From Candidatus Saccharimonadota bacterium (GTDB lineage: Bacteria > Patescibacteriota > Gracilibacteria > BD1-5 > UBA2023): a stretch of 32,000 bases of DNA. The notes under the pieces were generated by a model that worked only from the letters and a program-made list of their open reading frames with translations, was not told where the DNA came from and made no database searches. The stretch lies in assembly GCA_046350815.1 (NCBI GenBank), contig JAXLZO010000001.1, positions 810,001 through 842,000 on the forward strand. Direction: 5' to 3'. Position 1 is the stretch's first letter. Every line of letters starts with the position of its first letter. This document shows positions 167-32,000 of the stretch, one piece after another. Both the position numbers and the translations under genes were made by a program.

Positions 167-284
167 TTGTCTGTTTTCTGTGTCCGTTCTACAATGACCG
201 CTAACATGTAAATTCACGCAATGATTATCTTGTTTTTCCTTGCAGAGTCTATATTATTCGTCTAATATATTTCTATATGAAGTT

Positions 285-5471: not shown

Positions 5472-6059
5472 ATGAAGACTCCAAATTACATACATCAAAT
5501 CGAACAACTCAAATCAGATGGTAAATATAGTGATGCTCATGACTATGCAATTGATGCGCTCAAAAAAAACACAGATGACTATAGGCTTTATGAGGAGCTT
5601 TCTGATATAGCTCTCTTTGAATGAAGGGTGAAGGATGCATACAACTATGTACAACTCGCTCAAAAAATTCATGCCGAATCCATGACAGGCAAATACCTTC
5701 TTGGATCTGTTTATGTTGCGCTTGGTGAGTTTGATAGTGCAATCAAACTACTCTCTGAAGCAAATACGCTCGTTCCCAATAATCCTGAGATACTTCGTCA
5801 TCTTGGTTGGGCATATGCATGTCAGGGTGAATACCCAAGATGAATATCTCACCTTCGAAGGGCTCATATTCTCTCGCCCGATGATATAGGTGTGAAAGAG
5901 GATCTCTGAATTTCACTCATGTCTTATGCTATACTCCTTCGATGATCATGATCAGTAGATAGTGAAATGGTCGAAGATATGCTTTCCGAAGGGGAAAAGC
6001 TCTTGATTTCAACCGGTGCACATCAGAAACTCGCTGAATTTCGAAATCTCCACCTATAA
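5472..6059 (+). CDS. TPR-repeat protein
   Basis: ATG 5472, TAA 6057-6059, five in-frame TGA, same frame as track ORF 5628-5843. Repeated 34-aa-like helical units: YLLGSVYVALGEFDSAIKLLSEANTLVPNNPEILRHLGWAYACQGEYPRGISHLRRA. Confidence 0.7.
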
Positions 6060-7300: not shown

Positions 7301-8927
7301 ACAGTCGATTCACATCACGTATGAAACCCAGCTGTTGGAGCTCTATGATATATTATCACATGAGACGAACAAGGGAATAACACTCATTGTTGAATATCCG
7401 TGATTTTTTTCGCACCCCATCGTGTTGGAAGTGATGGTAAAAAAATTTAATAGTATTGATACGATTGCAACTGATGATCGAGCACTGCAGCATGTAGCAG
7501 TGCGTCTTGGGCTGAAATCTCTTCCTCTAGATAGTTCCGTTGTAGGAGATCTCCCACCAGCATCCGAAATACTCAAGCATAATTTTACAATTTTTGAGTA
7601 TTTTCTCTACGAATGTCGTCGTGGTGTGTGGCATGTTGGACGATTTTTTGCACGGAGCAAAAAACATCTCACGTATCGTCGACCCCTCAAGAGCTCTAAC
7701 ACTCTTCTTTTGATATTTTCTTTGAGCTTCTCTTTTTTGATTCTCATTTTTGTATTTTATTTTTCTGCAACCAGCACTACAGTAGAAATATTTCCAGAAA
7801 CAACAGTAAAAACATTGACAAGAAATCTTATTTTTACCACAACACCCAATCAATCTGCCTTCGCAAAGTCGAATGAAGTAGCTATGCTACCGTTGGATGT
7901 AATGGTTCATCTTGCAACTCCATTTGAAGTGAATTCTCTTGATCCGAATTCTGTGCGAAATGCAAAATGAATGGTAGAAGTGATAAATGAGCTCCCAACA
8001 CCTTCTCAGCTGCGCCCCGGAACGCGATTTACTTCTGAGGATGGCGTCCTTTTTAAAAGTCCTGGTTGGATTAAAATACCATGAATGGTTACAAGAAATG
8101 GCGAAGTGATCCCTGGAAAGATACAAATCCCACTTGTTGCTGAGAATGTCGATGAAAAGTGACGCATTATTGGTATACGATGAAACCTTAAGAGTGGTGC
8201 ATTTCTCTCGATACCGGGCCTGAAATTTAATAAAAGCAAAGTCTATGCTCAGGTTATAGGAGATTTTAGTGGTGGCGCTGATCCTACGAAAAAAGTACTC
8301 ACTCCAGAAACACTTGACCGTTTTAAAACTCTTTTTACAGAAAAACTTAAAAGTACAGCAAAGGACGAACTTGATAACACTCTTCGAAAGCATCCTGGTT
8401 ATAATTCATCAGAAGCCTGGAATATTATTCCTCTTTTCGATGTGTGGAAATATGAATTTTCTCCCATTGAGACCATTGATAATATCCTTCCAGGCGCAAG
8501 CGTCAGCAGTATTACTCTTTCAGGTAGTCTCCATCTTCGTACGTACGCCTACTCTTCTTCAAAAACAAAAGCGTATTTTGAGCAACTCTTCGATGCAAGT
8601 CTTCTTCCAGAGACTCAGACAATTGCATCACTCAATAACACGAATATATCTATTGAATCACTCACGCCATTGAGTCAAACAGGTGTTGAAAGTTTTAAAG
8701 CAACGATGAAGATGAATGGGAATATTGTGTATAATTTTTCAAACCCAACGAATCCACTTCTGCGTCAGATACGCAATCTGATTGTTGGTAGATCGAGAGA
8801 GGAGGCACTCTCAATTCTCAAGAATGATCCAAATGTTGCTGATGCGAAAATTAGTATATCACCCTTCTTTATGAATAAAGTTTCATCGAGACCAGATGCT
8901 ATTGATTTTGTGATTCGCACCAAATAA
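7293..8927 (+). CDS. large single-pass membrane protein, CPR-type 'baseplate-J-like' family suspected
   Basis: ATG 7293 overlaps the ftsA-like end by 8 nt; TAA 8925-8927. It joins track ORFs 7422-7970 and 8442-8927 through TGA. One TM segment (LLLIFSLSFSFLILIFVFYF). The extracytoplasmic block GMVEVINELPTPSQLRPGTRFTSEDGVLFKSPGWIKIPG resembles the 'G.V.I.N....Q.L...TRF...DG..F' block I recall from baseplate-J-annotated CPR proteins. That assignment is tentative. Confidence 0.55.
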
Positions 8928-10659: not shown

Positions 10660-11625
10660 ATGAAAGATCATAATAGTCATCATGTTGATGAAGATACTAT
10701 TGATACATCATCAACATCAGAATGTTCATCGTCGAACTGTTGTTCACAAGGTTCAGTCTCAAAATGTTCTCATATTTGAACAGAGGTGACGATACCAGTA
10801 ATGGCAACGATAGCTCTTGCAACACTTATTATGTCTTTTGCTATTCCCGCAATGACACAGTACTATATGCAAAAAAATGAGACTGATCGTCGAGCATATG
10901 ATATGCAAAAAGAATATGCTCAAGTGGGTGGTCAGGAGAATTATGAAGCAATCCTCAAATATCGAGCTGATGAAACATCCAAGCAAGTAGCGCTACTCAA
11001 GCAATCACAAACAGGTTCTCCACTTGCTGATGATACTGGAACAGTGGCACAAGCAAGCACAACTTTTTCAAAGGAAGATATTGCTGCAATGATAAAAGAT
11101 CAAGTGATCCATGGTCCTGCTAATGCAGATATTCTTATGATCGAATACACTGATCCAGAGTGTCCATATTGCCAAAGACAGTATCAATATGGTAGTATTG
11201 ATCAAGCACTTAAGATGGAATGAGTTGGGACTATAGCTCATATTATCAAGCCGGTAACTGGAGTAGGGCATCCAAATACCGTACAAAAGGGAATTGCTCT
11301 TATTTGTGCTGGAAAGGTAGGTGGATATGAATCTCTCGCAAAACTTGAGAAAACACTCTTTAATGATCAGAAAATATCACTCGATATGGCTCTGAAGAAT
11401 TCTTGAGTAGATATTGCAAAAATCCAAACTTGTATCAAGGGAAGTGCTGCTTCACTTCAGTTTAGTCAAAACGATGCTGAATTTGCAAAGGTAACTGCTA
11501 ATACGCAAGGTGCAGGCACTCCAACAACTCTCATTATCAATACAAAAACAGGAAAATCAGATTTTATACTCGGATCACTCCCAGCAGCAACATTTCAGGA
11601 GAAAATTAAAGCTCTTGCAAAATAA
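10660..11625 (+). CDS. DsbA-family thiol:disulfide oxidoreductase, membrane-anchored, with Cys-rich N-terminal tail
   Basis: ATG 10660, TAA 11623-11625, includes track ORF 10786-11223. Thioredoxin-fold active site EYTDPECPYCQRQ, TM segment IPVMATIALATLIMSFAIPA, and cis-Pro-loop-like GAGTPTTLII near the C-terminus. Confidence 0.8.
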
Positions 11626-16833: not shown

Positions 16834-19599
16834 ATGACTCTTAACACCATTCCAGACGTCTCTCATGAGTGAGTACCAAAGAAACCAGGAAAGATAACAG
16901 ATAAATCATCCAAGATTACCACCACTCGCAATCGTTCTTCTATGATGATCCGTACCATGGATCATCTCCTCCAATCTCTCGACACACTCTCCATGGATCC
17001 CAACGAGCGAGAACTCCAGAGACAAACCTATACTGCCATACGAGAAAGCCTCAGAAGATGAGAAAAGAGCGGTATTATTAAACTCCCCACAGGTACTGGA
17101 AAGACCTGGGTCTTTGCCAATCTCCTCAATATCTTCCAAAGAAATGGCCTCATCCTCGTTCCAAGAACCGATCTCTACTCTTCCACTATCCGAGATCTTA
17201 GAGAAGTAGGATTTAAGGATTCTGAGATCAGACTCATCGCTGAGGAATCAGGAGCAAACAGTGAAGAGCGAATGCTCTCTATCCTCACGGATCCATCTAT
17301 CGACTGGTCATCATGAAGAAATGTTACTATCATGAGCTACCAGTCTCTCAACTCCATGTTCAAGACGAATCCTGAGATATGATCTTTCATGAGGTCTCAT
17401 TTCGACATGATCATCGAAGATGAAGCCCATAGAGCTCTTGGGAAGAAGACAAAGAATGCAGTAGGTACTCTCACAGAAGATTGAGAAGATCAGGAAGAAC
17501 AAAACTTAGAAGAATTCATTCAAACAGAAGAACTTGACATAGCAGAACAAAGCGAACTCGAAGCAGAGATTAACGTTGATCATATCCTCGGTCTCGATGG
17601 TGAAAGCTTTCAAAACGACGATCGCTTCAACTACAAATTCACTGCAACTCCAGATCTTCTCAAGCACAGTGTCTCTGATGAGAGTGAATACATTTTCTAC
17701 GCAACCTTCGAACAAGCGGTGCGAACAAGAGCCATCGTCCTTCCACAATACGTCAATATGGGATCTGCCTATCTACGCTCAGGAGATCTTGAGAAGTGGA
17801 AAGTCAAAGATATCGAAGCACTCTCTGATCAAGAGGATGATCAATTTATCGATGAGAATGGTCTCTCTATACGAGACAAGATCATCGATGCCTACATTGA
17901 GAAGAAACAACAACACAACAACTCTCTCCCAGCTGTTGCTTTTGCGAGTACCATCAAGCATGCAGCTATCCTCGTCGATGCTATGAGAGCAAAAGGTATT
18001 AAAGCACAGAGAGTCACGAGTGCAAGATGAGATATCTCTTCCGAACAAGCAACAGAGATGATGGATAGATGACAGCTCGATGTCATCATCACCGTTACCA
18101 AGGTATCTGAATGATTTGACTACGCACCCCTCTCCTGTGCTCTGTGGTTTGCCCCCGTTCTCTCTCCTGCGAAGATCACTCAATGAAATGGTCGTATCTC
18201 ACGAATCACGCCAGACAAGATGCCAGAACACATCGAAGATGAACAATGACGCATCATCCCTTCTCCATCGGCCTACATTATTGCTCCAAGTGAGTGGTAT
18301 AGTGGATCAAAGAGAGCGAGTGATTCAGAGAATCTAGAGGAGATCCATGAAGATACAAATTGAGATGATGTAGATGATAATAATGAAGATCAAAACCCTC
18401 AAGATCAGAAACCAAAGAAACTCTCTCGTATCTGAAACTTCTATGAACTTCTTGTTTCTCAAGGAGAATTCAACTACAACACTCTTCCAACTAATTTCCA
18501 AAACATCATCTCTCTCAAAGACTCAATCTTTTGTGAAGTATGAGATGAAGTACAAATCGATGGAGTGGTTTATATGGGAATAACCGGGACTCAAGAAGTT
18601 ATAGAACTAAGATGAGAGACTATCCTCAAGAATGCTAAAAAAGATTCAACTCTCACGATCCTCCAGGGAAGACAACAATCATGATATCCTATCCAACTCG
18701 TCCCGAAGAGCTTTATAGAATGACTCAAACAAAGTTGGCAATATACTTGTGAGGTATGAGATGAAGTACAAATCGATGGAGTGGTTTATATGGGAGTAAC
18801 CAATGCTCAAGAAGTCATGGGACTAAGATGAGGGACTATTCTCAAGAATGTCAAAAACGATCCAACTCTCACGATCCTCCAGAGAAAACAATCATCATGA
18901 CATCCTATCCAACTCGTCCCGAAGAGTTTTATAGAATGACTCCTCAATACCTGTGAAGCATGAGAAGAAAAAACAATCGATGGAGTGGTTTATATGGGAG
19001 TAACCAATACTCAAGAGGTCATGGAACTACAATGACAGACTATCCTCGCTAATGCTAAAAAAGATTCAGCTCTCACAATCCTCCAAGGAAGACAACAATC
19101 ATGATATCCTATCCAACTTGTCCCGAAGAGCTTTATAGAATGACTCAAACAAAGTCGGCAATACACTTGTGAGACATGAGAAGAAAAAACAATTGATGGT
19201 GTGGTTTATATGGGAGTAGTCACTGCTCAAGAAGTCATGGGACTACAAGGATTTACTATCCTCAAGAATGCCAAAAACGATCCAACTCTCACGATCCTCC
19301 AAGGAAGACAGAAAAATTGATTATCTATCCAACTTGTCCCGAAGAGTTTTATAGAATGACTCAAACAAAGTTGGCAATACACTTGTGAAGCATGAGAAGA
19401 AAAAACAATCGATGGAGTGGTTTATATGGGAGTAACCAGGACTCAAGAAGTCATGGGACTACAATGACAGACTATTCTTAGAAATGCTAAAAAAGATCCA
19501 ACTCTCACGATCCTCCAAGGAAGACAGAAAAATTGATTTCCTATCCAACTCATCCCGAAGAGTTTTATAGAATGACTTGTTGCAAAAAAGACAAAATAA
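16834..19599 (+). CDS. SF2 DEAH-box helicase (ResIII/DEAD-like N-terminal core plus helicase C domain) with five C-terminal tandem repeat domains
   Basis: ATG 16834, TAA 19597-19599, 921 aa in one frame with about 35 in-frame TGA. The track sees only 17719-18030. Motif I KLPTGTGKT (17080-17106), motif II EDEAH (17416-17430), FTATP, VSEGFDY, QGNGRISR. The C-terminal 345 aa are five 68-72 aa repeats. Confidence 0.85.
18532..19575 (+). repeat. coding tandem repeat, five units of 216/204/216/216/192+ bp
   Basis: Unit starts (TGT codon) at 18532, 18748, 18952, 19168 and 19384, all in the helicase frame, highly similar at DNA level. Consensus: CE.GEE.TIDGVVYMGVT..QEVMGLQG.TILKNAKKD.TLTILQGRQ..G.PIQLVPKSFIEGLKQSWQYT. 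Confidence 0.95.
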
Positions 19600-20911: not shown

Positions 20912-20964
20912 AAGAGTATTATATGTGAATAAATAAACTTTCTCCATCATGAGATAAGTCATCA

Positions 20965-23595
20965 ATGCTTACATCCCTCCAAGACGGTGCAAAGGATGTT
21001 GTGAAGCGTATCTTTGGTCGTACTCATGCAATTCTAGAGCCATTTGCTCTTCCGCCTGAAGTGAATAAGCGGACAATGCAGATGCTTTCACAGTTCTATA
21101 TTGATAATGAGGTATATAATAGTGCCCTCTTTTGAGGACTGATTGACGATAAAAAACTCTGCTTTATTCTAGAGAAAAATCCACAATTTGCACAAGATTT
21201 TATTGTCAAATTTCTCGGGTATGCAAAACAAAGACAACAATGGGAACAAAAATTTGAGAAGGCAAAAGATGAAAAAAATCATTACCTCTCAGAAGAGTCA
21301 TTTTTTCATATTGAACAAGCAAATGAAGAATTCATCGAAAGTATTCGTGAATCAATGAGGGTAATTCCCATTGATTGTTACAAAGAAAAATTTGAAAATT
21401 TTGATGATGAAAGCGGTATGAGTAGAAAGAAATTTTTTGATGAGCTTCATTGATTGGAGTTATCTCTTGAGTCGTATAAAAAATCAATCGATCCACGATA
21501 TGTAGAACTCTATACTTTTCTCTATATTCGATATCTTTTTTACGCTAATATAACTCAAGATAAAGTAGATCAGTGAGATCAAGAATATTCTATTTATAAC
21601 ATAGAACGACTGAGAAATGTAGATTATATTTTGCAGGAGTTATCAAAACTTACGAATCATTCCAAGCAAAATAAAAAATGACCAACACTTGATATAAATC
21701 AAGAATTGAAATTTATTTTCTCATTGGATTCTCCTTATGATCCTTTTTCTCTGATAGAATCATCGAAACAGACAAAGTCTCTCTCATCATCCTTTGATCT
21801 TTTTTATCGTGATTATTTGTGACTCTGAGATATGATTCATACACAATCATCAATATCAGCAATTGCCACACCCTACCTTATTTCATCATATGATGATCTT
21901 GGCATCGCTGAAAATTATAATAGTCCACATGCATACTATCATCGCCCACTCCTTGATGATCCAATGAGGGCTGTAAAAATGATTGTCTACGGGAAACACA
22001 AGAAGACAAATACTCTAGCATACCGAGAACTGTATGAATTCCTCGAAAATCTTCATTATCAAAGTATTGTGGAAATGGATGTGTATAGCTTGCTAGCTCT
22101 TGAACAAAAGGATTTTGCATCTATTTTGAGTGCTGCTTTTCGCAAGCAAGCACCTGAGTCTAGAGAGGCAGCAGAGATATATTTTCAAGAATTTCAAAAT
22201 GATTTTTTTCAAGAATTTGAATCTATTATGGATGTAGATATTAAATCTATTTTTCCTTCATTTCCGAAAAATAAGCGATTTGCAACGATCAAGGATTATG
22301 CCGCATGGATTCATAGTGCCTATCCGGTCGGGAACCGTAAAAATGTTCATGATATATTGCTATCGGAAGCTGATATGTTGCGTGCAAATCTCATGAAAAA
22401 TACGATTGCATGGATCGATATACCAGTCATTCGTCGTCATCAAAATCTTGCTACAACACATCAAATGTTACTGATAGATTATCTCAAGAAATTCCATAAT
22501 AATTATTGATCATCATTTGAACAACAACATAGCTTGAATAAGTTTATCTTTCACACAAAGATTGCGTGAACATCGCCTGAAATAAGCGTTGATATACACT
22601 TTGAAATCAGTTCACGTATCAAGGATCTTGCCTCAGTTCTGGTGAAGATGCTTGGTGACCCAAAGTATAACTATGTTGATTCTCTGAGAGATCTCTCCGG
22701 TATGAGATGTATTATTGATGGTTATTACGGTGTTGGTGATCCGTTTGATGGTTGATTTATCCTCCTTAAGGATTCAAATAATTTTGCTCAGCAAGCATAT
22801 AATCAATTTGTGCTTGCTCTAGTATGATTTATCGAAAAAAATTCCTTGATTTATAAATTCAAGGGAACACCATCGAATCCTGCTGCACACAATGAACTTG
22901 TTCAAAAATTGAACATGATATTTCCACATCTTGAACTCAAGACGCGTTCTCTACGAGATTATACTGGCAAGACTGATAATGGATATACTGATGCCAGTAT
23001 CACTGGTAATCCCCTGATTATGGATGACTCACAAGAGAATGGTCATTCTCAAGTACGTACTGAAATACAAATAATGACCAGATCTATGAAGAGTGATCTT
23101 CGATGACCAGCATCCTGAGCATGTTATAATGCAAAAAAATTTATGACACTTTTGAGTCGTCAGAATCGAATATTTTCCCTGAAAGATTTTTATCGAATAT
23201 GCGCATCAAATGCGCTTCATCAAGATGGCATTGCTTCATCATGAATGGAACCGGAGGATTTTTTAAAATATCTTCTTTGCAAATGATATCTTTCTGCTTA
23301 CACGTATTGACCTGATCAAGAAGGAATTCTCTTGAACGCAAATGAATATGAATATCGATTGGATGAGATACGTGCAAATGGTAGCTCTATCCGTCAAAGC
23401 GCAAATTTAAAAAAGATGTCTATTTTTTGAATGAAGATGGACATTTCTGCAACTCTTTATCCGAAAAATCAAAATATACTTGATCAGTATGGCAATATTC
23501 GCAAATGAAAAAAATGGGAGGAGATTATAAAGGCTTTTTACCTGAATCCCAAACTGTGCAGTTGAGATCAAAATGTTTCTCTCGCCAAAAAATAA
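20965..23595 (+). CDS. large hypothetical protein (876 aa) with a divergent RelA/SpoT-like nucleotidyltransferase core in the C-terminal third
   Basis: ATG 20965, TAA 23593-23595. It joins track ORFs 21832-22509 and 22846-23106 in one frame through about 17 TGA. Candidate RSD motifs in canonical order: ISSRIKDLASVLVKM (about 22606), LRDLSGMRCII (about 22690), NGYTDASI, and VRTEIQIMT (23062-23079; the canonical form is ExQxRT). The N-terminal ~520 aa has no recognisable domain. Confidence 0.6.
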
Positions 23596-24250
23596 ATCAT
23601 TTGGCAGCCTCCATTCAAGGATCAATAATCGATGCTTGTTCAAGTTGAGGGAATTCATTTTTGATTTCTTCAAAAGTTCCTGTGATGATAGGGTAGTGAG
23701 TGCAACCAAGAATAATAGCATCTATGTCTCTGTTTTTATCTGGTATACGATGGAGCGCACCACGAATAAGATTTTGTTGCTCCGATGTATTATTGGATTC
23801 TATTGCCTGAACGAGTCATGGTATAGATATATTTATGACTCATACTTTGTTTCATGCAATCTGATGTATATAGTGCGTATAGATTCATGATTTTTTGGTA
23901 GCATCTGTTGATATTACAAGGACATTTTTAAAATTACCATCTCGCACTGCCTCGCACGCTGGATAGGTGACACCGAGAATTCGTTGATACTTTGGAAGAG
24001 TATTTTGTAAATGACGGAGTGCATGAACACTCGCTGTATTACATGCGAGTATCACAACATTACATCATTGATCAAAAAGATGACTGACTCATTTCTTCGT
24101 GAGAGCTATGATTTCCTCACATTCTCGATCTCAATAGGGACAATTTTCATAATCTGCATACACGATGGTCTCTATATCTGGATTATGAACAAGAAAACTG
24201 TCTCTCACATGATATGCTCAAGAGCCAGAATCAAAAAATCCTACTTTCAT
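23525..24250 (-). CDS. murI: glutamate racemase
   Basis: Reverse-strand ATG 24250, TAA 23527-23525, 241 aa, about 10 in-frame TGA, no standard-code ORF in the track. Motifs: MKVGFFDSGSGAY, YADYENCPYGDR, VILACNTASVHAL, ILGCTHYPI (the two catalytic Cys motifs). Confidence 0.9.
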
Positions 24251-24284
24251 AAAATCCTCACAATAATTATTGTGAGGATTTTAT
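24249..24284 (-). terminator. 36-bp perfect palindrome between secD stop and murI start (terminator-like hairpin that contains the murI SD and start)
   Basis: 24249-24266 is the exact reverse complement of 24267-24284. On the minus strand the 3' arm reads tgtGAGGAttttAT, then G of the murI ATG. The secD TAA is at 24289-24287. Confidence 0.65.
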
Positions 24285-24286
24285 TC

Positions 24287-26008
24287 TTATTTTTGTATTT
24301 TACCAAGAAATAAAGTTTCTCGTTTGGTAAAGTATTTTGTTGACGCTAGCAGAAGTATACGTGATATCCACATGGCAGTGAAGAGTGAGAGCACAATACC
24401 AATACCAAGCATTAAACCAAATCATTTGATAAGATTCACTCAAAATACGAACAGGATAACAGCTGATGTGAGTGAGGTGACATGAGAGTCCCATATAGCA
24501 CTCCACGATTTTTCAAATCCGATAATAGTTGCATCGATAAGGTTATGTTTTTCACGAACCGCTTCTTTCATTCGCTCGAAAATCAATATATTTGCATCGA
24601 TCGCAAGTCCTATAGAGAGAATCATACCAGCAATAGACGCAAGCGTAAGTACAATACCAAATGATTTAACAATAGCAGTTAAAATCAAAGCATATATAAT
24701 AAGTGCAACGCCAGCAATAAGTCAGGATACACGATAAATCATCACAAGAAAGATAATAATCGCAGCCAAGCCAATGGCTCCAGCCACAATAATTACATGA
24801 AGTGCATCTCGTCCAATTTTTGCATCAATGGTTCGCTCGCTTGAGAGGTAGATCGGTGCAGGGACAATACCAGTTTTGATATCTTGTGCAGTTCTTCTTG
24901 CTTCCTCTATGGTATATGAGCCAGTAATAACCGCTGAACCATCAGTTATGCGTGCCTGAATGGTTGGTGCAGTGATCAGCTGCCCTCAGACAAATATGGC
25001 AAGCTGTTGCCCAAGAAGACGTTCTGTAAGATCACTAAATATTTTCTTTCCTTCGTCATTGAAAATAAGTTGTATCTCTGGTTGGGATTGTTGATTGAAT
25101 ACCATCTGCGCGTTCTGGAGATATTGGTCATTGAGAACTGCACCACTTGCTGTTTTTGCAACCTGCCACTGACTTGGCTCTTGATTTACCCAGATGACAC
25201 TATAGTCATAGACTTTGGTGTCTTTTCCATCAATTTTTGTTCAAAGAATACTGTTCCATTTCACAACAGCATATCCTGTTGGTGCTGTATTCCCCGAGAG
25301 AGAAACGGTGTTTTGTAGTTTTGTTGTCACCACTTCACTGAGACTTGATCCACTCAGTGATTCGATGCCCGCATATTTTACATACTCTGGGAGATTTTCG
25401 AGAGTTCCAGTTCCATTTTCAAAGCTGATATTCTCATGAGTTGTAGAGTATTTGTCACCGAGATCTTTAAAAGATGTCCCAGAAAGTGCTTTTTGTCGGA
25501 TTTCTTGTGCTATCGCTTTTCTCTCTGCTTTATCCTCTTCGGTAATAGTTGTCTTCTTTTCCTTGAATTCGAGGGTAACTACTTTTCCAATAGTTTCTTT
25601 TGCTTGTTTAATATACTCATTATTCTTCTTTTGTTGTTCTTCTTTGGATGTATTTGCATCTCGGGCAATTGTTGGTATTTGAACAATAATATGACTCTCT
25701 CAACCATATTGCGCGCTGGTAATAGTTGGCTCAGTGGTTCCGAGACTATTGACGCGTTTTTCGATGATTTTCTTGAGACCATCAGATACTTCATTTTTAT
25801 TGAGTTTTGGATCTTGTTTGAGTTTTTCTTCCATATCGATACGGTAGTCGAGTTCAACTCATCCATTAAGATCAAGTCCAAGTTTATATTCCCCATGAGA
25901 TAGGCCTTCAGGAAGTGTGATTCCAAAATGTGACCATGGAATAACAAAAAAGAGTGATACGACTGAGACAATTCCAATAAAAATAAGCCTTCCGGTGAGT
26001 GATTTCAT
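24287..26008 (-). CDS. secD: protein translocase subunit SecD
   Basis: Reverse-strand ATG 26008, TAA 24289-24287, 573 aa. The track shows only 24440-24688. Indexed translation gives N-terminal TM, YKLGLDLNGGVELDY, LAIFVGGQLITAPTIQARITDGSAVITGSYTIEEARRTAQDIKTGIVPAPI, LTLASIAGMILSIGLAIDANILIFERMKE, and GVNLIKGFGLMLGIGIVLSLFTAM. Confidence 0.92.
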
Positions 26009-26043
26009 AGAAAAAAAGATACGAATGAGTACAAAGTGTTGGA

Positions 26044-26071
26044 ATTATAGATTGCAAAGAGAAAAAGGCAA
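26044..26071 (-). promoter_or_regulatory. putative secD promoter
   Basis: Minus strand: TTGCCT (26071-26066, the 3' arm of the upstream terminator), 16-nt spacer, TATAAT (26049-26044), about 35 nt upstream of the secD ATG. Confidence 0.3.
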
Positions 26072-26089
26072 GTTGATTGCCTTTTTCTC
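26059..26089 (-). terminator. rho-independent terminator after the antiporter gene
   Basis: gagaaaaaggcaa (26059-26071) pairs with ttgcctttttctc (26077-26089) around a 5-nt loop. A U-rich tract follows on the minus strand. Confidence 0.65.
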
Positions 26090-26094
26090 TTTCA

Positions 26095-27438
26095 TTACTT
26101 GATATGAAGTTTCTTCATAAGTGGTGTTATTGTGAGTGCTTTGATAAAGAGTGTGAAAACAACACAACCAACAGTGAGTCCAAGAATAAATTCTTGAATA
26201 CTGAGCGGAAATTGCCAGCCAGGGAAGCTCAGATCCACAGGAATAAGAAGTGCCATGATAATAGCAAGAGCACCACGAAGGCTTCACCAAGAGAGAAGGT
26301 GCTGCCAACTTTTTGGAATTTCCTCTTCTATATTGAGTGCATTAAACGGTGTAATAACACTATATACACTCAGTGCTCTCGCTATCATGACGGCAATAAT
26401 TGAAATAGCTACAGGAATGATGAGATAATCCCAATGAACTCAGAGCTTAATAATCATGATACCGAGGAGCAAGAAGATGATAGCGTTGGTAACAAAAGCC
26501 ATATAATCCCAAATACTATGCATGGTTGATTCAATTTCTGGTGACAAATGTTTGCGCCCTATGGATCCAAAAACAACAGCCGCAATGGTTGTAGCGATCA
26601 CTCCTGAAAGTGGCACAACAAAATGGGAAATTCCCTCAGCAAGGAGAAAAGTGACATGAGCAAGGAGTATGGATATGGTGATTTCGACAAGTGGGGCTCA
26701 TTTAATCTTTTTTACAAAATTGGAAGCAAGAAGTCCAACTATCGCACCGAATAATCCGCCGAGTAAGAGCATAGAGAGGAATGATAGAATTCCCTTGAGC
26801 GCTATCCATATCCCTCCGTGATGACTCGCAAAAAAGTGATCAAGTAAATTAGTACCGTGAGATCCATGATATCCGCTCACCTCTATGACTACCCCAAGGA
26901 TAACAAGAAAGAATGCAAGTGCTGTTCCATCGTTGAAGAGGCTTTCTCCTTCAAAAATGAGGGCTAGTCTTTTTGGTGCATTACATTCCTTGAAGAGTGC
27001 AAGTACCGCTACAGGATCCGTAGCAGATATGAGGGCACCGAAGAGAAAATAAATAATAAATGGTATCTGGATATCAAAAATATAGGTTAAAACTACATAC
27101 ATGATAGTACCAGTGATGAGTGCTGAAATAATGAGCGATAGAATAGCAAGTAATCCTATAGACCATTTATTCGCCATGAGATCCTTTATCCTCATGTTAT
27201 ACCCACTCTCAAAGAGGAGAATTGGTAGAAATACATAAAAAAGCATTTCTGGACCAAGTTCAAACGACAATAGGAAGGAAAGTCTCGGCTCATGACTTAT
27301 AATCCAACCAAGAATGAGTCCAAATGCAACAAGAAGTACTGTAAAAGGTATTCGTGTCTTCTTTGCAAGAAGATAGATGCCCATAGAGAGCGAGAGAAGC
27401 GCAAGACATGAAAATGTCTGTAAATAAAAATCGGTCAT
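26095..27438 (-). CDS. nhaP: CPA1-family Na+/H+ (cation/proton) antiporter
   Basis: Track ORF 26698-27438 continues through TGA 26700-26698 and three more to TAA 26097-26095 (447 aa). Polytopic membrane protein with LFGALISATDPVAVLALF and FEGESLFNDGTA, typical of NhaP/NHE exchangers. Confidence 0.8.
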
Positions 27439-27505
27439 ATTTTTGATAAAAACCGATATGTTGTAGGCAAAGTTGTATGGAAGTCAAAAATATGAGTATT
27501 GACAT

Positions 27506-27979
27506 CTAGTAGTGTTGTATCGAACTCAGGTAAGCTATCGCAATAGCATCAGCAGCATCATCAGGCTTTGGAGGGTTTGCTAGATTGAAGAGTGATTGTA
27601 TTGCTGATTGCACTTGTTGTTTGGTAGCTCTTCCATTTCCACAAATTCCTTTTTTTACTTGAAGCGGGGTAAATTCGGAGCGCGCAATATTATTTCTTGT
27701 GAGAAGTTCAACAACGACTCATCGACATTCTGCAACAGAAATCCCAGTGGTTATATTACTTCCAAAATAGAGCTTCTCGATACCAGCTCTCTCAATAGTT
27801 GGGTATTTTTGGAGAAGACTTTCAAGATCGTCACGAATTTCTCGTAGTTTCTCGCCGGCATTCATTTTGGGTGGAGTAGCAATTACTCCATAGTCAATCA
27901 GGACTATTTTCCCCTTATTTATTTCAACAAGAGCATATCAAAGTGTTGTTGTTCCTGGGTCGATTCAGAGTGTGAGCAT
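27506..27979 (-). CDS. ruvC: crossover junction endodeoxyribonuclease RuvC
   Basis: Reverse-strand ATG 27979, TAG 27508-27506, 157 aa. Translation [74 protein letters not shown] falls on the LGIDPG and LGY glycines. Confidence 0.9.
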
Positions 27980-27982
27980 GGT

Positions 27983-28522
27983 TTATGGATTAATCCTTGT
28001 TATTTGAATAGGAGTCATACTATCACCTATTGATCGAATTCGTAAATTTGCACCATAATCATTCCATGTTGATGGTGATGACCAAGTATAATAGGTAAAA
28101 AGCTGCGATGGATACTGTCACATATATCATGATAAATTTAGAAAATTTAAGTTTGTTAATGTGATTAATTGATTTGATGGAGCACTATTCATATGGTGTC
28201 AGTTAAGGTTCAAATATTCTAAATTAATAAGGTTTCCAAAAGTGTTTGGTAAGCTCGTAAAACTTCCGTATGCAATATCTAAATGTTTAAGGTTTACTAA
28301 GTTATCAATACTGCTCGGTATGTTATTTAGATAAGCTCATCAAGAGCTTGGTCATCAGATGGACAAACGTTCAAGCAGGTTAAGAGATGTTATGATTTCT
28401 GGAAAACTATTAAATCGAGTATCAGTGATGCGCAAATCTTTTAAGTTTGTCATTCACGATAGGGTAGTTGGAAGGGAGTTGAGTGGATATCAAGTGAGAT
28501 TTAAATATTCTAATTGGTCTAG
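27983..28522 (-). pseudogene. C-terminal LRR portion of the pilin-leader/FN3/LRR gene, separated from the upstream part by a compensating frameshift pair
   Basis: Same frame as 28547-29998, ending TAA 27985-27983. Translation NLTGYPLNSLPTTLSGMTNLKDLRITDTRFNSFPEIITSLNLLERLSIGG..NLVNLKHLDIAYGSFTSLPNTFGNLINLEYLNLNG..LTNLNFLNLSG. There is no own start until ATG 28453, and the LRR register continues from the upstream part. Confidence 0.6.
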
Positions 28523-28546
28523 ATTACCAACGCTATCAGGGAGCGA

Positions 28547-29998
28547 ATTAAACGCGCTCGCTATGGATGATCTCTGCAATTCGATAGTACGCAGCTTCCG
28601 TAGATTACCGAATTCTTCAGGAAGACTTGTGAAATTATTAGATCCTCAACTGAGATATTGAAGCTCTCGAAGTTTTGTTATAGCGATCGGAAAAGTACTT
28701 AAAGATTTATTAGAGATATTAATATTTGTTTGCGTACACCATGTTCATTTATCATATGTTACATTTGTAAGGTTGTTGAGTTGAATAACCTCTGCATCAC
28801 TGAGATCATCAATACATGGAATATGTGCATACGCTTGAATAATTCATGAATAAATACTTTCTCAATGACTATTTATTGCTTTTACCTTGTAAAAAGTAGT
28901 GACATCATTTGTTCTTCATGTGTGTGTGTATCCCGTATTTGATATGTTGATGATTTCTGTATATGTTCCTGATAGACTCGTTGACCACGCAAGAGTATAT
29001 TGTGTTGCTCATGTAACATAGTCCCATGTAAGCGAAATAGATCCGCTTCATCCAGTTGTCTGAAGATTTTCTGGTGTTTGAGGTACGCTCCCACCATTAC
29101 TCCCACTACTCCCACTATTCATCCCCAAAAGACTCTTCTCATCAAAGCTTCCATTCTTCAGAGCATTGAGTGATCCAGTAGAGATATCCGTGGATACATA
29201 TTCATCAGCTCACTGTGATCCTACTATGATATCAAGCGTACTTGCATCACTCAAAGAGATATCTCTACTTCCTGTACCACTCACTCCATTCTGAAGAGGT
29301 TGCTTACTTCCCTTGGAGAGAAAGATTCAAAGCCTATCTCCTGCAGAGTAGGGATATCTCTTGGAGAGATCAATAGAACTGCTATCGAGAGCATAGGCTG
29401 TATCAAATGGATACATGGTATCTCAGGCGTACGCCTGAGATACTCTCATTCCTTCCATTGTTCCTTCTGTTGCTTCGCGAAGTGAAGCAGAGAGTGTATC
29501 TCAAAAATTTGAGAAACTTCCAATGTTTGCAAGATCTCAGAGAGTGGATGGAAGAGATTGCTTCGCAATCTCAATACTCCTCTCAAATCTTGGATTCTCA
29601 AGGTATGCCATGAACTGTGCACTATCGTAGTGTTGATTGACTCGATAGGTATAGGGTATATTGTCTTTGGGATCAAAGATTTTATCTGATCCATACCCGA
29701 GAGGATTCACCAGAGTAGTATTCATGAATCCTTGGTATCCAATGAATGATCCACTCACACTCAGAGAGACACTATCTGCTATAGGTGTAGGAAGTAATCG
29801 AAGCTGTGCACTGGTAATTCTCGCACTCTCTGACAATGTCTTAATATCACTAATTCTCTTTCCATCTCTTGCCACTGATGACTCATGACTCATCACGACA
29901 AACCCTATCACGGAGAGTATAGAGAGTATGGTGATGACTACTATGAGTTCGGTGAGGGTGAAGGCGGAATGCTTTTTCACCGAAGAGAAGATTTGCAT
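28547..29998 (-). CDS. type IV pilin-like (prepilin N-terminal leader) surface protein with Gly/Ser linker, FN3 domain and leucine-rich repeats (5' portion up to the frame break)
   Basis: Track ORF 29537-29998 starts MQIFSSVKKHSAFTLTELIVVITILSILSVIGFVV, a class III prepilin leader plus hydrophobic helix. It reads through TGA to TAA 28549-28547. FN3-like segment PENLQTTGGSGSISLTWDYVTGATQYTLAWSTSLSGTYTEIINISNTGYTHTGRTNDVTTFYKVKAINSHGESIYS (about 29083-28847), then LRRs LRELQYLSGGSNNFTSLPEEFGNLRKLRTIEL. Confidence 0.75.
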
Positions 29999-30137
29999 AG
30001 TATACGATGATAATAAAATACAAGGTGTATGTGTATGGTAGTAAGAATATCACAGTTCTTATGAAAAGTAAAAAATACCCAATGAGAAGTTGAGTATTTT
30101 TTGTAGACAAACGGAGTTTTAGTTTTTGGTATAGGTT

Positions 30138-32000
30138 TTACTTTTTTATAGAACTACCCATTTGATTCTGGGTTGTTGTTTGTTGTGCTAACTTCTTTGC
30201 TCTTTCCTCATCTTTCTGAGCTTTGATCTTCTCTTTGTGTGCTTCCTGGTTTTGTTTGAATTTCTTTTCATCATCTGTCACTTTGTTGCCGTAGTCATTG
30301 ATTTTTTTCTCTACAAATTCTCGTGGTTTTGCGTATTTTTCTCGAGAAATAGCACGGATTTTTACTGGGTCTTGCTTTGGTACTGTCAGATGATCATTAA
30401 TCGGAGCAAAGGTTGTTGCGGAGAATACTGGTGATGGCATACCATCAATGAGAAGTTTTGTATAGATATCATATTTTCTCAGATTTTGGAGGTCTTGTGC
30501 GGATATAACATCTTCATCACCCATAACTTCCACCATTTTTGGGGCATCTTCTGGGCCGACTTGAAATGAAATTGTGGATCCTACGTTACCAAATACAGCT
30601 CACTGAACTACCTCAGACATCTGAGATATGTATTGATTTGCCATTACAAGTGAGAGTCGATATTTGCGTGCTTCTGAGAGGATGGTTGCAAAGGAATCAG
30701 TAGCAAAGTTCTGAAATTCGTCTACATAAAGGAAGAAGTCTTTACGATCTTTTTCAGGAATATCAGCACGAGTCATCGCGTCGATCTGGAATTTCGTTAC
30801 CATCATAGATCCGAGAAGAGCGGAAGTATCTTCACCAATACGACCTTTTGAGAGATTGATGATACAGATTTTTTGATTATCCATGATCCATCTGAGGCTG
30901 AATGGATTTTTTGGTTGTCCGAGGATATTGCGCATCAGGGGGCTGGAGAGGAATTGTCCAACCTTGTTGAGAATCGGCCCAGCCGCCTCGACCATTTGAT
31001 TCGGTGCCATAGCTTCATACTCTGAGAGCCAAAACTTTTTGAGGAGAGGATCTTTGACTTTATCGATGATTTTTCTCCTATACGACGCATGAGTGAGAAC
31101 CACGGGGATGGACATAATCGTCTCATCACCAACATCGAGAAGTGATAGTACCGTGTTTCTGAGGATGTGTTCCAGACGTGGTCACCAAGAATCTCAGAAA
31201 ATTCTTTTAAAGACACTCACAAGACCAGATGCTACAATAGGCTGCAGATCTCTATGGACACTCTCAAGCATGTTAAATCCGATAGGATAGTTGAGATCCG
31301 TCGGATCAAAAAGTACCACATCATTTGTTCTACTTTTTGGTATCGAAGCGAGTATCGTTTCGGCAAGATCTCCATGCGGATCAATAAGCCCAACGCCGCG
31401 TCATTTCACAATATCATCATAGATCATGTTCTCGAGGAGTGTTGATTTCCCCATACCTGTTTTTCCGATGATATAGACGTGACGACGACGATCGAGAAGT
31501 GGTGAGCCAAAACTTTTTTGAGTTCCTCGAAAATTGGTTTTTCCAATAGGTGTCAGAGTATCATCGTCTTCTATGAGTGGGAGATTCGCTGGTGGTTCGA
31601 ATTTTTTGGAAGTTACCCAATTGATACCGGGAGTTTTGACGTAGAGTGTAGGTAAATGAACGAGACCTGCTACTTCGGCACTACAAAAATACCATGGATG
31701 AAAATGTTCTCGTTTTGCTACTCGATCACCCGATATGGGTGCTATTTTATCTAAGACAAAGCCATTACGATCAGGAAGATTGAATATATTGAGCGCACCA
31801 ACCATTTCTCTGATATGACTCTTCGCTTGGATAGGATCATTCTCATAACTTACGACTGCGAGTGAGGTATAATAACCAAATCATGCGAGTTTTTGCTTGA
31901 TAGCGAGATCGAGATCCTTGTCTCCTTTATCTCATTCCGTATGACGTGTTTTCACATCCTCTGAGGTGGCAGGAGGACTAAAAATCATTCAAAATCACCG
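30138..32000 (-). CDS. TraD/VirD4-like type IV secretion coupling-protein ATPase (TrwB/TraG-D_C type); N-terminus beyond the right edge
   Basis: Track ORFs 30138-30536, 30600-31115 and 31401-31805 are one frame joined by TGA and open to 32000; TAA 30140-30138. Walker A RHVYIIGKTGMGKSTLL, Walker B FFLYVDEFQNFAT, then RKYRLSLVMANQYISQM..VFGNVGSTISFQVG. Lys/Glu-rich low-complexity C-terminal tail. Confidence 0.75.

What the first reader, a model, noticed from the sequence alone, without database searches (positions are those of the whole stretch)
27983..29998. Chimeric surface protein: type IV prepilin leader fused to a Gly/Ser linker, an FN3 domain and a leucine-rich-repeat array
Seen: the N-terminus KKHSAFTLTELIVVITILSILSVIGFVV is a class III (prepilin-peptidase type) signal with the conserved Glu at +5, although Ala replaces the canonical Gly at -1. 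It is followed by about 300 aa of low-complexity G/S/T-rich sequence and one clear FN3 module. At least seven LRR units of the 'L..L..L.L..N.F.SLP..fGNL' type come after that.

Established knowledge: pilin-like leaders place a protein in or on a type IV filament, and LRR and FN3 domains are protein-protein adhesion modules.

Inference: this is a candidate tip or minor-pilin adhesin for attachment to a host or prey cell. That would fit the episymbiotic or predatory lifestyles proposed for code-25 CPR lineages. At 672 codons it is far larger than ordinary pilins.
Basis: partly seen in the sequence, partly recalled or inferred. Interest (0 to 1): 0.7.

Follow-up and report, generated by a model that had tools for sequence, protein, structure and literature searches.

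The report
Modular type IV pilin carrying FN3-LRR
This gene of a UGA-recoded Gracilibacteria genome encodes a "modular" type IV pilin: a complete pilin carrier domain joined by a short linker to a fibronectin-III domain and a leucine-rich-repeat horseshoe, and it is one of several sister genes that share the carrier but carry different binding modules, probably for grabbing other cells.

Summary
The gene is real: window 27983-29998, minus strand, 671 aa. It is intact only if TGA is read as a sense codon (21 in-frame TGA).

**Domains**
- The prepilin leader passes curated cut-offs (Pfam N_methyl, TIGR02532).
- There are nine LRR units. Their predicted fold matches Leptospira LRR proteins, SHOC2 and internalin A.
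- The FN3 domain is present but divergent. It gets no direct Pfam hit and is recognised only by profile.
Residues 13-294 form a conserved pilin module: a long α1 helix, a β-sheet, a hypervariable loop and a second β subdomain. The true Gly/Ser linker is about 11 aa.

**Family and locus**
- At least four other proteins on the same 1.28-Mb contig share this carrier module. They carry BspA-type LRR or other C-terminal modules instead.
- At the same chromosomal slot in a related population, the FN3-LRR block is replaced by a BspA-LRR block. The left breakpoint lies in the linker.
- The N-modules are recombination mosaics.

**Pilus machinery**
- The source genome encodes PilT.
- Related genomes place PilB, PilC and PilT next to small pilins of the same family.

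**Verdict**
This is a new member of the known "modular pilin" class (Raynaud et al. 2021). An adhesin role is inferred, not shown.

The parts
27983..29998 (-). Whole gene: 671 codons plus a TAA stop at 27983-27985. It contains 21 in-frame TGA (Gly) codons.
   Evidence: Translation under tables 11, 25 and 4. The identical protein is P0001, annotated by NCBI as a prepilin-type N-terminal cleavage/methylation domain protein of a Candidatus Gracilibacteria MAG. dN/dS against the L082 orthologue is 0.24.
29963..29998 (-). Class III (prepilin) leader peptide MQIFSSVKKHSA, aa 1-12. The predicted cleavage site lies after Ala12.
   Evidence: Read directly from the sequence. N_methyl and TIGR02532 pass their cut-offs. 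The -1 residue is Ala or Gly in all 147 leaders of this family in the fetched loci.
29564..29962 (-). Pilin module, part 1 (aa 13-145). It comprises Phe+1, Glu+5, the hydrophobic α1N segment, the long α1 helix (aa 15-66) and four β-strands carrying the conserved DPxDxxPYTY...Q...YLEN motif.
   Evidence: Invariant columns F13, T14, L15, E17..., Y116, Y118, Q128 and E134 in A1. The profile matches solved pilins over α1: geopilin at 1.5e-11, PilE1 at 5.5e-8, GspG at 1.1e-4. The AlphaFold model has pLDDT 70-90 here.
29378..29563 (-). Hypervariable loop or insert inside the pilin module (aa 146-207). It varies by large indels between orthologues and paralogues.
   Evidence: Gapped block in A1. pLDDT is below 50. 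Window 29540-29408 is unaligned against 28 nt in L082. Paralogue comparison.
29117..29377 (-). Pilin module, part 2 (aa 208-294). A conserved β-rich subdomain that ends in ...NGSFDEKSLLGMN.
   Evidence: Conserved in A1. AlphaFold pLDDT is about 80, with strands at 215-271. No Pfam family matches.
29084..29116 (-). Gly/Ser linker SGSSGSNGGSV (aa 295-305). It holds the left recombination breakpoint of the module swap.
   Evidence: Composition analysis. DNA similarity to L095 ends at window 29099, which is aa ~301.
28817..29083 (-). Divergent fibronectin type III domain (aa 306-394).
   Evidence: No direct Pfam hit. BLAST to the fn3 segments of P0019 and P0023. Profile A3 hits solved FN3 domains. 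The domain is not folded by AlphaFold.
28730..28816 (-). LRR N-terminal cap with a Cys pair (C395...C421; motif C-x-x-L-[ST]-x-x-E-[VI]-x-x-L-N...W-C).
   Evidence: Read directly from the sequence. The same motif precedes each LRR block in P0005, P0016, P0017 and P0019. Helices at 394-421 have pLDDT above 90.
28079..28729 (-). Leucine-rich-repeat solenoid (aa 424-640). Eight regular units of 23-28 aa plus a terminal degenerate unit.
   Evidence: LRR_14 and LRR_8 exceed their cut-offs. Unit table. AlphaFold pLDDT is above 90. Foldseek matches LIC10831 at 2.4e-11, LIC12759, SHOC2 and InlA.
27986..28078 (-). C-terminal tail (aa 641-671). The last ~35 codons align to the intergenic DNA between the pilin gene and ruvC in haplotype C. 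This marks the right boundary of the swapped block.
   Evidence: blastn similarity to L095 resumes at window 28090 = L095 4546, which lies downstream of the L095 pilin stop at 4488.
30138..32000 (-). Upstream neighbour: a VirD4/TrwB-like coupling-protein ATPase, cut off by the window end. In the closest relative it is preceded by a cNMP-binding gene and pilT.
   Evidence: TrwB_AAD_bind at 1.2e-10 and T4SS-DNA_transf. 96% identical to the 836-aa L082 protein. L082 gene table.
27506..27979 (-). Downstream neighbour ruvC, starting 3 nt after the pilin stop codon. It serves as a syntenic anchor and is probably co-transcribed.
   Evidence: Pfam RuvC at 3.4e-37. Synteny with L082, L095 and L097.

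Best explanation
The gene encodes a modular type IV pilin.

**Steps shown or inferred**
1. Shown: the protein has a 12-residue class III leader ending in Ala. This is followed by Phe+1, Glu+5 and a hydrophobic α1N segment.
2. Inferred from established type IV pilin biology: a prepilin peptidase cleaves the leader and methylates Phe+1. α1N holds the protein in the membrane. The PilB/PilC machinery then polymerises it into a filament through α1.
3. Shown: the first ~280 mature residues are a conserved pilin "carrier" module with a surface hypervariable loop. An 11-residue Gly/Ser linker then tethers an "effector" block of one FN3 domain and a nine-unit LRR horseshoe.
4. Inferred: the ~370-aa effector block is too bulky for the filament shaft. 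The protein is therefore most likely a low-abundance pilin at the pilus tip, or one dangling from the filament on its linker. FN3 would act as a spacer and the LRR surface would bind a protein ligand on another cell. PilT-driven retraction would then pull the cells together.
5. Shown: the genome carries several sister genes with the same carrier and different effector blocks. The carriers are recombination mosaics. The effector block has been exchanged at this very locus between related populations.
6. Inferred: the family works as an exchangeable repertoire of recognition modules.
For: **Pilin signature**
- N_methyl and TIGR02532 are above their curated cut-offs.
- The A1 profile matches solved pilins over α1.
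- The AlphaFold model shows a 52-residue N-terminal helix followed by a β-sheet at pLDDT 70-90.
- All 147 leaders in the fetched loci have Gly or Ala at -1.

**Effector block**
- The LRR passes Pfam cut-offs. Its predicted structure matches known LRR proteins, including Leptospira LRR proteins and internalin A.
- FN3 is supported at profile level.

**Function retained**
- dN/dS is 0.24, and the ORF is intact in the window and in three orthologues.

**Pilus machinery**
- PilT is encoded on the source contig. In the closest relative it lies three genes upstream.
- In related Gracilibacteria, PilB-like T2SSE (2e-116), PilC T2SSF (1.6e-44) and PilT sit next to ~200-aa pilins of the same family.

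**Family pattern**
- 1,341 family representatives match at E<=1e-30. Among the 144 newly retrieved proteins of the top 150, the median length is 451 aa. Laminin_G_3 and other binding modules follow the carrier.

**Repertoire and exchange**
- Paralogues P0006, P0007, P0008 and P0019 lie on the same contig.
- FN3-LRR is swapped for BspA-LRR at the syntenic slot.
- The PHI test gives p<0.001. All three quartet splits are spatially clustered among the four same-contig paralogues.

**Precedent**
- Modular pilins such as S. sanguinis PilB are bona fide adhesins polymerised through their pilin module (PMC8179133).
Against: - No prepilin peptidase, PilB or PilC could be checked in the source genome itself. 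A PilD-motif scan of the fetched loci found nothing.
- Foldseek gave no significant match for the pilin module. The N-module model was poor, with pLDDT 55.8.
- FN3 has no direct Pfam hit and did not fold in the AlphaFold model.
- Substitutions between orthologues are not enriched on the LRR concave face: 0.29 against 0.37 elsewhere. There is therefore no signature of ligand-driven diversification.
- The gene is not inside a pilus operon. Its neighbours are ruvC and a VirD4-like ATPase.
- There is no expression, localisation or binding evidence.
Confidence: 0.62

Rival explanations
1. The protein is a membrane-anchored surface receptor that uses the class III signal only as a processed anchor. 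It is never polymerised into a long pilus. The analogy is the Sulfolobus "bindosome" sugar-binding proteins, or a short pseudopilus. The FN3-LRR ectodomain would then project from the cell surface itself.
For: - The gene lies outside any pilus operon.
- The effector block is very large relative to the carrier.
- The family has many large members and relatively few small ones among the top hits: 106 of the 144 retrieved representatives are >=400 aa.
- That class III signals occur on non-filament binding proteins in archaea is from my own knowledge.
Against: - The carrier is a complete pilin module with the conserved Glu+5 and a long α1, not just a signal.
- Small pilins of the same family sit beside PilB, PilC and PilT in relatives.
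- Modular pilins with comparably bulky modules are assembled into pili in S. sanguinis (PMC8179133).
Confidence: 0.2
2. The protein is a minor pilin of a competence-type or secretion-type type IV filament. Its main role would be DNA uptake or priming of filament assembly. The FN3-LRR block would serve interactions inside the machinery or with the cell's own envelope, not host recognition.
For: - CPR type IV pili are widely proposed to serve DNA uptake (PMC6744442; PMC8080830).
- The neighbours are DNA-related: ruvC and a VirD4-like DNA-translocase-type ATPase.
- There are weak NCBIfam similarities to ComGC and GspG over α1.
Against: - The ComGC, GspG and GspH matches are far below their cut-offs and cover only α1.
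- LRR, BspA-LRR and LamG modules that vary between paralogues and strains suit variable external ligands better than a conserved internal partner.
- A VirD4-like gene lies within 10 kb in only 4 of 80 related loci, about what chance predicts.
Confidence: 0.1
3. The ORF is a decaying or spurious gene, such as an assembly chimera of a pilin gene and an LRR gene. It would make no functional product.
For: - Repeated N-modules could mislead metagenome assemblers.
- The FN3 domain is divergent.
Against: - The same architecture occurs on four independent assemblies: the window, L082, L097 (= P0004) and P0003.
- dN/dS is 0.15-0.33 for the domains that show non-synonymous change. FN3 has no non-synonymous difference, so its ratio is undefined.
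- There is no frameshift or stop under code 25.
- The source contig is 1.28 Mb.
Confidence: 0.03

Closest known systems
Modular type IV pilins, with Streptococcus sanguinis PilB (vWA module) and PilC (lectin module) as prototypes (Raynaud et al. 2021, PMC8179133; Shahin et al. 2023, PMC9934059)
   Same: - An N-terminal pilin module with an IPR012902/N_methyl leader, a short linker, and a C-terminal domain not specific to pili that binds ligands.
- Many CPR examples.
- Pilin-BspA-LRR (IPR026906; 18+6 proteins) and pilin-FN3 (IPR003961; 12) are among the listed architectures.
   Different: - The carrier here is much larger (~280 aa, with a hypervariable loop and an extra β subdomain) than the small PilB pilin module.
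- The FN3 + classical LRR combination was not matched in the searchable text of the paper's Dataset S1. Pilin + IPR001611 occurs there once.
- No structure or binding data exist for this protein.
R64 plasmid thin-pilus adhesin PilV and its shufflon
   Same: A type IV minor pilin with a constant N-terminal part and alternative C-terminal segments that set which cell surface is recognised (my own knowledge; Ishiwa & Komano 2003 is cited in PMC7739484).
   Different: - The shufflon switches C-termini by Rci-mediated inversion between short inverted repeats within one locus.
- Here no such inverted repeats flank the gene. The alternatives are separate full-length paralogues. Exchange appears to occur by homologous recombination in the carrier and linker.
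Neisseria pilE/pilS antigenic variation
   Same: A multi-copy pilin family in one genome with mosaic sequences produced by gene conversion (the Neisseria facts are from my own knowledge).
   Different: - In Neisseria the variable part is the pilin globular domain itself, and the donors are promoterless silent copies.
- Here the conserved part is the pilin module and whole downstream domains differ.
- P0006 and P0019 are annotated without a leader.
Bacterial LRR adhesins: Leptospira LIC10831/LIC12759, Listeria internalin A, Tannerella BspA
   Same: The best structural matches of the C-terminal solenoid: E 2.4e-11 to 1e-7, 20-30% identity over ~230-270 columns. These are surface proteins that bind host proteins.
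   Different: - Those proteins are anchored by lipoboxes, LPXTG or GW modules, not by a pilin module.
- This protein has no LPXTG motif (read from the sequence).
Large tip-located minor pilins CofB/TcpB, and the non-pilin tip adhesin PilY1/PilC
   Same: A bulky C-terminal domain presented at the pilus tip through a pilin or pilin-binding carrier (as discussed in PMC8179133).
   Different: No sequence or fold relationship of the effector block was found. Trimerisation or a tip complex was not tested.

Membership tests
Type IV pilin (class III signal peptide) | Short basic leader ending in Gly (or Ala) at -1, followed by Phe/Met at +1 and Glu at +5 | tested here: met
   KKHSA|FTLTE. N_methyl scores 24.8 bits against 21.2 and TIGR02532 scores 24.1 against 16.3. 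The -1 residue is Ala or Gly in all 147 family leaders.
Type IV pilin (class III signal peptide) | About 20 hydrophobic residues (α1N) at the start of a ~50-residue α1 helix packed on an antiparallel β-sheet | tested here: inconclusive
   The sequence and the AlphaFold model show helix 15-66 and then strands 77-133 at pLDDT 70-90. The profile matches solved pilins over α1 only. Foldseek on the N-module model gave no significant hit.
Type IV pilin (class III signal peptide) | Prepilin peptidase (PilD, Peptidase_A24) encoded in the genome | not testable with these tools
   Only 32 kb of the 1.28-Mb source contig is available. A motif scan of the fetched loci found none. PilD is reported as widespread in CPR (PMC6744442).
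Type IV pilin (class III signal peptide) | Type IV pilus ATPases and platform protein encoded in the genome | tested here: inconclusive
   PilT is present on the source contig (MFO0764038.1). PilB-like T2SSE and PilC T2SSF were demonstrated only in related Gracilibacteria loci.
Type IV pilin (class III signal peptide) | Incorporation into a filament | not testable with these tools
   This needs pilus purification, imaging or proteomics.
Modular pilin (sensu Raynaud et al. 2021) | N-terminal pilin module, a short linker, and one or more extra domains not specific to pilus biology | tested here: met
   Pilin module at aa 13-294, linker at 295-305, FN3 at 306-394 and LRR at 395-640.
Fibronectin type III domain (PF00041) | Match to the family profile above threshold | tested here: not met
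   No fn3 hit for the whole protein or for the isolated segment, even at E<=10.
Fibronectin type III domain (PF00041) | Homology to bona fide FN3 domains by transitive or profile search | tested here: met
   52% identity to the fn3 segment of P0019 (E 1.6e-19). Profile A3 hits 112 solved FN3-containing chains, with single-domain matches at 8.7e-18 (3mpc) and 2.9e-12 (FN3con). 8 of 12 profile members hit PF00041.
Fibronectin type III domain (PF00041) | Seven-stranded β-sandwich fold | tested here: inconclusive
   AlphaFold gave pLDDT below 50 for aa 290-392, where the alignment is shallow.
Leucine-rich repeat (LRR_8 / LRR_14 type) | Tandem LxxLxLxxN-type units forming a curved solenoid | tested here: met
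   LRR_14 at 77.5 bits against 40 and LRR_8 at 36.9 against 27. Nine units. pLDDT above 90 with alternating strand and helix. Foldseek E as low as 2.4e-11 to LRR structures.
Shufflon-type PilV adhesin (R64) | Alternative C-terminal segments bounded by short inverted repeats and inverted by a dedicated tyrosine recombinase | tested here: not met
   No flanking inverted repeats beyond chance-level short pairs in 26000-32000. The only integrase in the window is 27 kb away at 3-1130.
Internalin family | LRR followed by an Ig-like inter-repeat region and an LPXTG or GW anchor | tested here: not met
   The structural similarity is limited to the LRR. There is no LPXTG motif in the sequence, and anchoring is by the N-terminal pilin module.

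The most novel reading that the evidence does not exclude
The gene is one cassette of a recombination-driven recognition repertoire. A conserved pilin carrier is kept similar among at least five paralogues by intragenomic gene conversion. It would serve as the homology arm through which whole binding modules (FN3-LRR, BspA-LRR, other LRR blocks, LamG in remoter relatives) are swapped between paralogues and strains. This would set or change which host or prey cell the code-25 episymbiont can seize with its pili. It would be a homologous-recombination counterpart of the R64 PilV shufflon.
Probability: 0.35. Interest if true: 0.7.

Novelty: new member of a known kind. Interest (0 to 1): 0.45.

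Why it matters
Gracilibacteria and their relatives are uncultured, host-dependent bacteria. What determines their host specificity is unknown. Type IV pili are the one attachment device shown experimentally in CPR bacteria (Saccharibacteria).

A pilin that carries an LRR binding module, in a genome with several sister pilins carrying other modules, gives concrete candidates for host-recognition proteins. The FN3-LRR block can be expressed and used to fish for its ligand, and thereby for the host.

The observed module swap at a fixed chromosomal slot, together with the mosaic carriers, suggests how such specificity could change quickly. In oral TM7, pilins and LRR proteins have been discussed as alternative adhesion systems (PMC7739484). 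Here they are joined in a single polypeptide.

Tried and rejected
1. **Exact-protein look-up of source-genome DNA.** P0001, P0007 and P0008 are not on record. The paralogues' DNA and the rest of the source genome could therefore not be read.
2. **Genome-contig scan.** The source genome is not among the species representatives. The best identity found was 39% over a long match, and up to 60% only over alpha1-only segments.
3. **Fold search of the pilin module.** The N-module-only AlphaFold model was poor (pLDDT 55.8). Foldseek returned nothing below E=2.9; a type II pseudopilus model appeared only at E=3.9. This was a dead end.
4. **Direct Pfam search for fn3 and for any family in aa 36-296.** No hits.
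5. **PilD search by the GxGDxK motif in about 1.4 Mb of fetched loci.** No hit. This is uninformative about the source genome.
6. **Shufflon hypothesis.** No suitable inverted repeats. Rejected.
7. **Diversifying selection on the LRR concave face.** Substitutions are not enriched there. This gives no support.
8. **Functional link between the VirD4-like ATPase and pilin genes.** The ATPase lies within 10 kb in only 4 of 80 related loci, roughly what chance predicts. I treat it as lineage-local synteny only.
9. **g7 as PilM.** PilM_2 scores E 0.021, below its cut-off. FtsA scores E 0.068. Unresolved.
10. **Promoter and terminator scans around the gene.** Counts were at shuffle level.
Full report
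**1. The observation**

The finding sits on the minus strand at 27983-29998. Table 11 breaks the frame 22 times. Tables 25 and 4 give one 671-aa protein. Across the window, table-25 ORFs tile the sequence, whereas table-11 ORFs cover about a third of it.

TGA supplies 21 of the 55 Gly codons in this gene. An independent argument favours Gly (code 25) over Trp (code 4). In 147 distinct prepilin leaders of this family in the fetched loci, the residue before the cleavage site is always Ala (80) or Gly (67). Of those 67 Gly, 27 are TGA. The closest orthologue reads ...HPQ-TGA-TTC-ACC-CTC-ACC-GAA, which is G|FTLTE.

**2. Domain by domain**

*Leader and α1.* The sequence is MQIFSSVKKHSA|FTLTELIVVITILSILSVIGFVV.
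- Pfam N_methyl scores 24.8 bits (cut-off 21.2). TIGR02532 scores 24.1 (cut-off 16.3).
- Ala at -1 is the family norm: 92 of 144 representatives.

*Residues 36-300.* This stretch is not low complexity.
- Entropy is 3.93 bits against 3.99 for the whole protein. G+S+T is 32% against 31%.
- A 20-sequence alignment (A1) shows invariant F13, T14, L15, E17..., P70, P72, G83, Q89, Y116, Y118, Q128 and E134. It also shows a GspG-like DPxDxxPYTY motif.
- The A1 profile matches solved pilins over α1: geopilin at 1.5e-11, PilE1 at 5.5e-8, PilA, and GspG at 1.1e-4.
- AlphaFold with 52 sequences gives helix 15-66 and strands 77-133 at pLDDT 70-90. It gives a disordered 138-207 and a second β subdomain at 208-289 with pLDDT ~80.
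- The disordered part coincides with a hypervariable indel region.
- A separate N-module model was poorer, and Foldseek found nothing significant. The pilin fold therefore rests on sequence and topology, not on a structural match.

*Linker.* The true linker is SGSSGSNGGSV (aa 295-305).

*FN3 (aa 306-394).*
- There is no direct Pfam hit, and AlphaFold did not fold it.
- It is 52% identical to the fn3 segment of paralogue P0019 (E 1.6e-19) and similar to repeated fn3 modules of P0023, P0039 and P0058.
- A profile containing it hits solved FN3 domains at up to 8.7e-18.
- I accept it as a divergent FN3.

*LRR.*
- A Cys395...Cys421 cap is followed by eight 23-28-aa units and one degenerate unit.
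- LRR_14 and LRR_8 are above their cut-offs, and pLDDT is above 90.
- The best structural matches are Leptospira LIC10831 and LIC12759, SHOC2 and internalin A.

**3. Family context**

The identical protein (P0001) is already annotated by NCBI as a prepilin-type domain protein of a Candidatus Gracilibacteria MAG, on a contig of 1,283,673 bp.

Orthologues with the same architecture are P0002 (86% identity), P0003 (72%) and P0004 (64%).

Four other proteins on the same contig share only the carrier or part of it:
- P0006, P0007 and P0008 share about 43% of the query at 67-73% identity. They carry BspA-type LRR_5/FNIP repeats.
- P0019 has fn3 plus LRR_4.

More distant carriers are followed by LamG or DUF1566/Lcl_C modules.

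An exhaustive profile search gives the size of the family:
- 1,341 cluster representatives match at E<=1e-30.
- Among the 144 newly retrieved proteins of the top 150, the median length is 451 aa and 106 are >=400 aa.
- Of 103 representatives scanned, 89 hit N_methyl and 25 hit Laminin_G_3. A scatter hit Fib_succ_major, Fibrinogen_C, Lcl_C, Sialidase-N and others. None hit an LRR family.
- The carrier is therefore a widespread vehicle, and the LRR cargo is specific to this small clade.

**4. Locus comparison**

The closest relative, L082 (a JGI contig), shares 86-90% nucleotide identity with the window. Its gene order is: pilT (T2SSE, 351 aa), a cNMP-binding gene, a VirD4-like/DUF8128 gene (96% identical to the window's g28), an extra 812-aa pilin-LRR gene (P0016), the orthologue of our gene, ruvC, a Na/H exchanger and secDF.

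Three haplotypes exist at this slot:

| Haplotype | Loci | Pilin genes between the VirD4-like gene and ruvC |
|---|---|---|
| A | window, L097 | pilin-FN3-LRR only |
| B | L082 | extra upstream pilin-LRR, then pilin-FN3-LRR |
| C | L094, L095, L100 | extra upstream pilin-LRR (821 aa), then a 493-aa pilin-BspA-LRR |

The 493-aa protein of haplotype C hits N_methyl at 8.7e-8 and LRR_5 at 2e-36.

Against haplotype C, DNA similarity stops at window 29099, inside the linker. It resumes at 28090, about 35 codons before the stop. That position aligns with intergenic DNA in haplotype C. The whole FN3-LRR block has therefore been exchanged.

**5. Recombination and selection**

- On 699 ungapped N-module nucleotides from 10 sequences, 41% of informative site pairs are incompatible. 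A PHI test (my own implementation) gives 0.328 against 0.4275 ± 0.007 for permutations, with 0 of 1000 permutations as low.
- Among the four paralogues of the single source contig, all three quartet splits are supported in spatially separate blocks: positions 84-96, 126-141 and 160-289. Large indels are shared in conflicting patterns.
- Window against L082 gives dN/dS 0.24 overall.
- dS differs sharply along the locus:

| Region | dS |
|---|---|
| LRR | 0.04 |
| FN3 | 0.09 |
| ruvC | 0.20 |
| Na/H exchanger | 0.27 |
| N-module | 0.35-0.42 |
| g28 (VirD4-like) | 0.95 |
| secDF | 1.12 |

- This pattern suggests a recent recombination tract between strains.
- Caveat: the metagenome assemblies could contain chimeras among repeated carriers. 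The same-contig comparison is less exposed to this.

**6. Pilus machinery**

- The source genome encodes PilT (P0214 = MFO0764038.1, contig length 1,283,673).
- In related Gracilibacteria (L073, L049, L072, L056, L043), ~200-aa pilins of the same family sit beside several pilus genes. These are a PilB-like T2SSE (410 aa, 2.2e-116), a SpoIIE-type phosphatase, PilC (T2SSF, 1.6e-44) and PilT.
- PilD, PilB and PilC could not be examined in the source genome. A motif scan of the fetched loci for PilD was empty.
- The literature reports the full set, including PilD and excluding PilQ, as widespread in CPR (PMC6744442). It also reports expressed type IV pili in Gracilibacteria (PMC11452946).

**7. 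Interpretation**

The protein meets the definition of a modular pilin (PMC8179133).
- That study counted more than 1,200 such proteins in 264 architectures.
- Pilin-BspA-LRR (18+6) and pilin-FN3 (12) are among the frequent architectures. Pilin plus classical LRR occurs once. Many representatives come from CPR, including a Gracilibacteria protein.

The most likely mechanism runs as follows:
1. A prepilin peptidase processes the leader.
2. The protein is polymerised through α1 as a low-abundance, probably tip-exposed subunit.
3. The FN3-LRR block is displayed for protein binding on another cell.
4. PilT retracts the pilus.

The first three steps are inferred from family biology. Only the sequence features, the paralogue repertoire, the module swap and the presence of PilT are shown.

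The rivals are an unpolymerised anchor, a competence- or secretion-type minor pilin, and a non-functional ORF. I rate them at 0.2, 0.1 and 0.03.

**8. Novelty**

This is a new member and a new domain combination of a known class, already generically annotated. The more novel reading is a recombination-driven repertoire of exchangeable recognition modules on a conserved pilin carrier. It is supported. It still needs the paralogues' DNA, proof against assembly artefacts, and functional data.

Noticed in passing
window 30138-32000 (-); L082 2684-7261: The gene upstream of the pilin is a VirD4/TrwB-like coupling-protein ATPase with a DUF8128 N-terminal region. In the closest relative it is preceded by a cNMP-binding protein and pilT. 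Published work notes that most Patescibacteria T4CP homologues lie far from virB4 and may have been co-opted (PMC12102498). A VirD4-like gene lies within 10 kb of family pilins in only 4 of 80 remoter loci, about the chance level.
   Followed up: partly
window 29999-30137 versus L082 7220-9931 and L095 338-3048: There is a presence/absence polymorphism of an entire second modular pilin gene (812-824 aa, pilin plus two LRR blocks; P0016-like) between the VirD4-like gene and this gene. It is absent in the window and L097, and present in L082, L095 and L100.
   Followed up: partly
window 23607-32000 versus L082: Synonymous divergence is very uneven along the syntenic region: LRR 0.04, FN3 0.09, ruvC 0.20, Na/H exchanger 0.27, against VirD4-like 0.95 and secDF 1.12. 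This suggests a recent inter-strain recombination tract centred on the effector block.
   Followed up: partly
147 prepilin leaders in the window and loci L001-L106: The -1 residue is only Ala or Gly, and 27 of the 67 Gly are TGA codons. This is a position-specific internal check that TGA means Gly (code 25) and not Trp (code 4). Several public translations (P0002-P0005) show W at these sites.
   Followed up: yes
L073 6643-11018; L049 17210-20356; L072 1-3987: In related Gracilibacteria pilus operons, a ~630-aa SpoIIE/PP2C-type phosphatase (9e-31) sits between the PilB-like ATPase and PilC. This hints at phospho-regulation of the pilus machinery.
   Followed up: no
window 16834-19599 (+): A 921-aa ResIII/DEAD helicase has a C-terminal half made of five tandem ~70-aa repeats (CExG[DE]E..IDGVVYMG.T..QEV..L.G.TIL.N.K.D.TLTILQGRQ..G.PIQLVPKSFIEGL). 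No Pfam match covers the repeats.
   Followed up: no
window 10660-11625 (+): A membrane-anchored thioredoxin-fold protein (Thioredoxin_4, CPYC motif). CPR-enriched thiol-disulfide oxidoreductases have been proposed to help fold pilins (PMC6744442).
   Followed up: no
window 6059-8927 (+): g7 (413 aa) has only sub-threshold similarity to PilM_2 (E 0.021) and FtsA (E 0.068). It is followed by a 544-aa membrane protein with no family match. Whether this pair is a divisome or a pilus alignment pair is unresolved.
   Followed up: partly
window 3-1130 (+) and 20923-23595 (+): A tyrosine recombinase (Phage_integrase, 1.3e-42) is cut by the window start. An 890-aa ORF has no Pfam match at all.
   Followed up: no
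paralogues P0005-P0008, P0012, P0019; L083, L086, L087, L090: Directly after the Gly/Ser linker, most paralogues carry a conserved ~130-aa domain (…[HY][IV]LTMGEYS..G..YYGY[IV]GP…) with no family assignment. It sits where this gene has FN3. Some paralogues add further repeated β-domains (…SNI[ST]TPVPL[ST]VSGAEFRVNGG.WV…).
   Followed up: no
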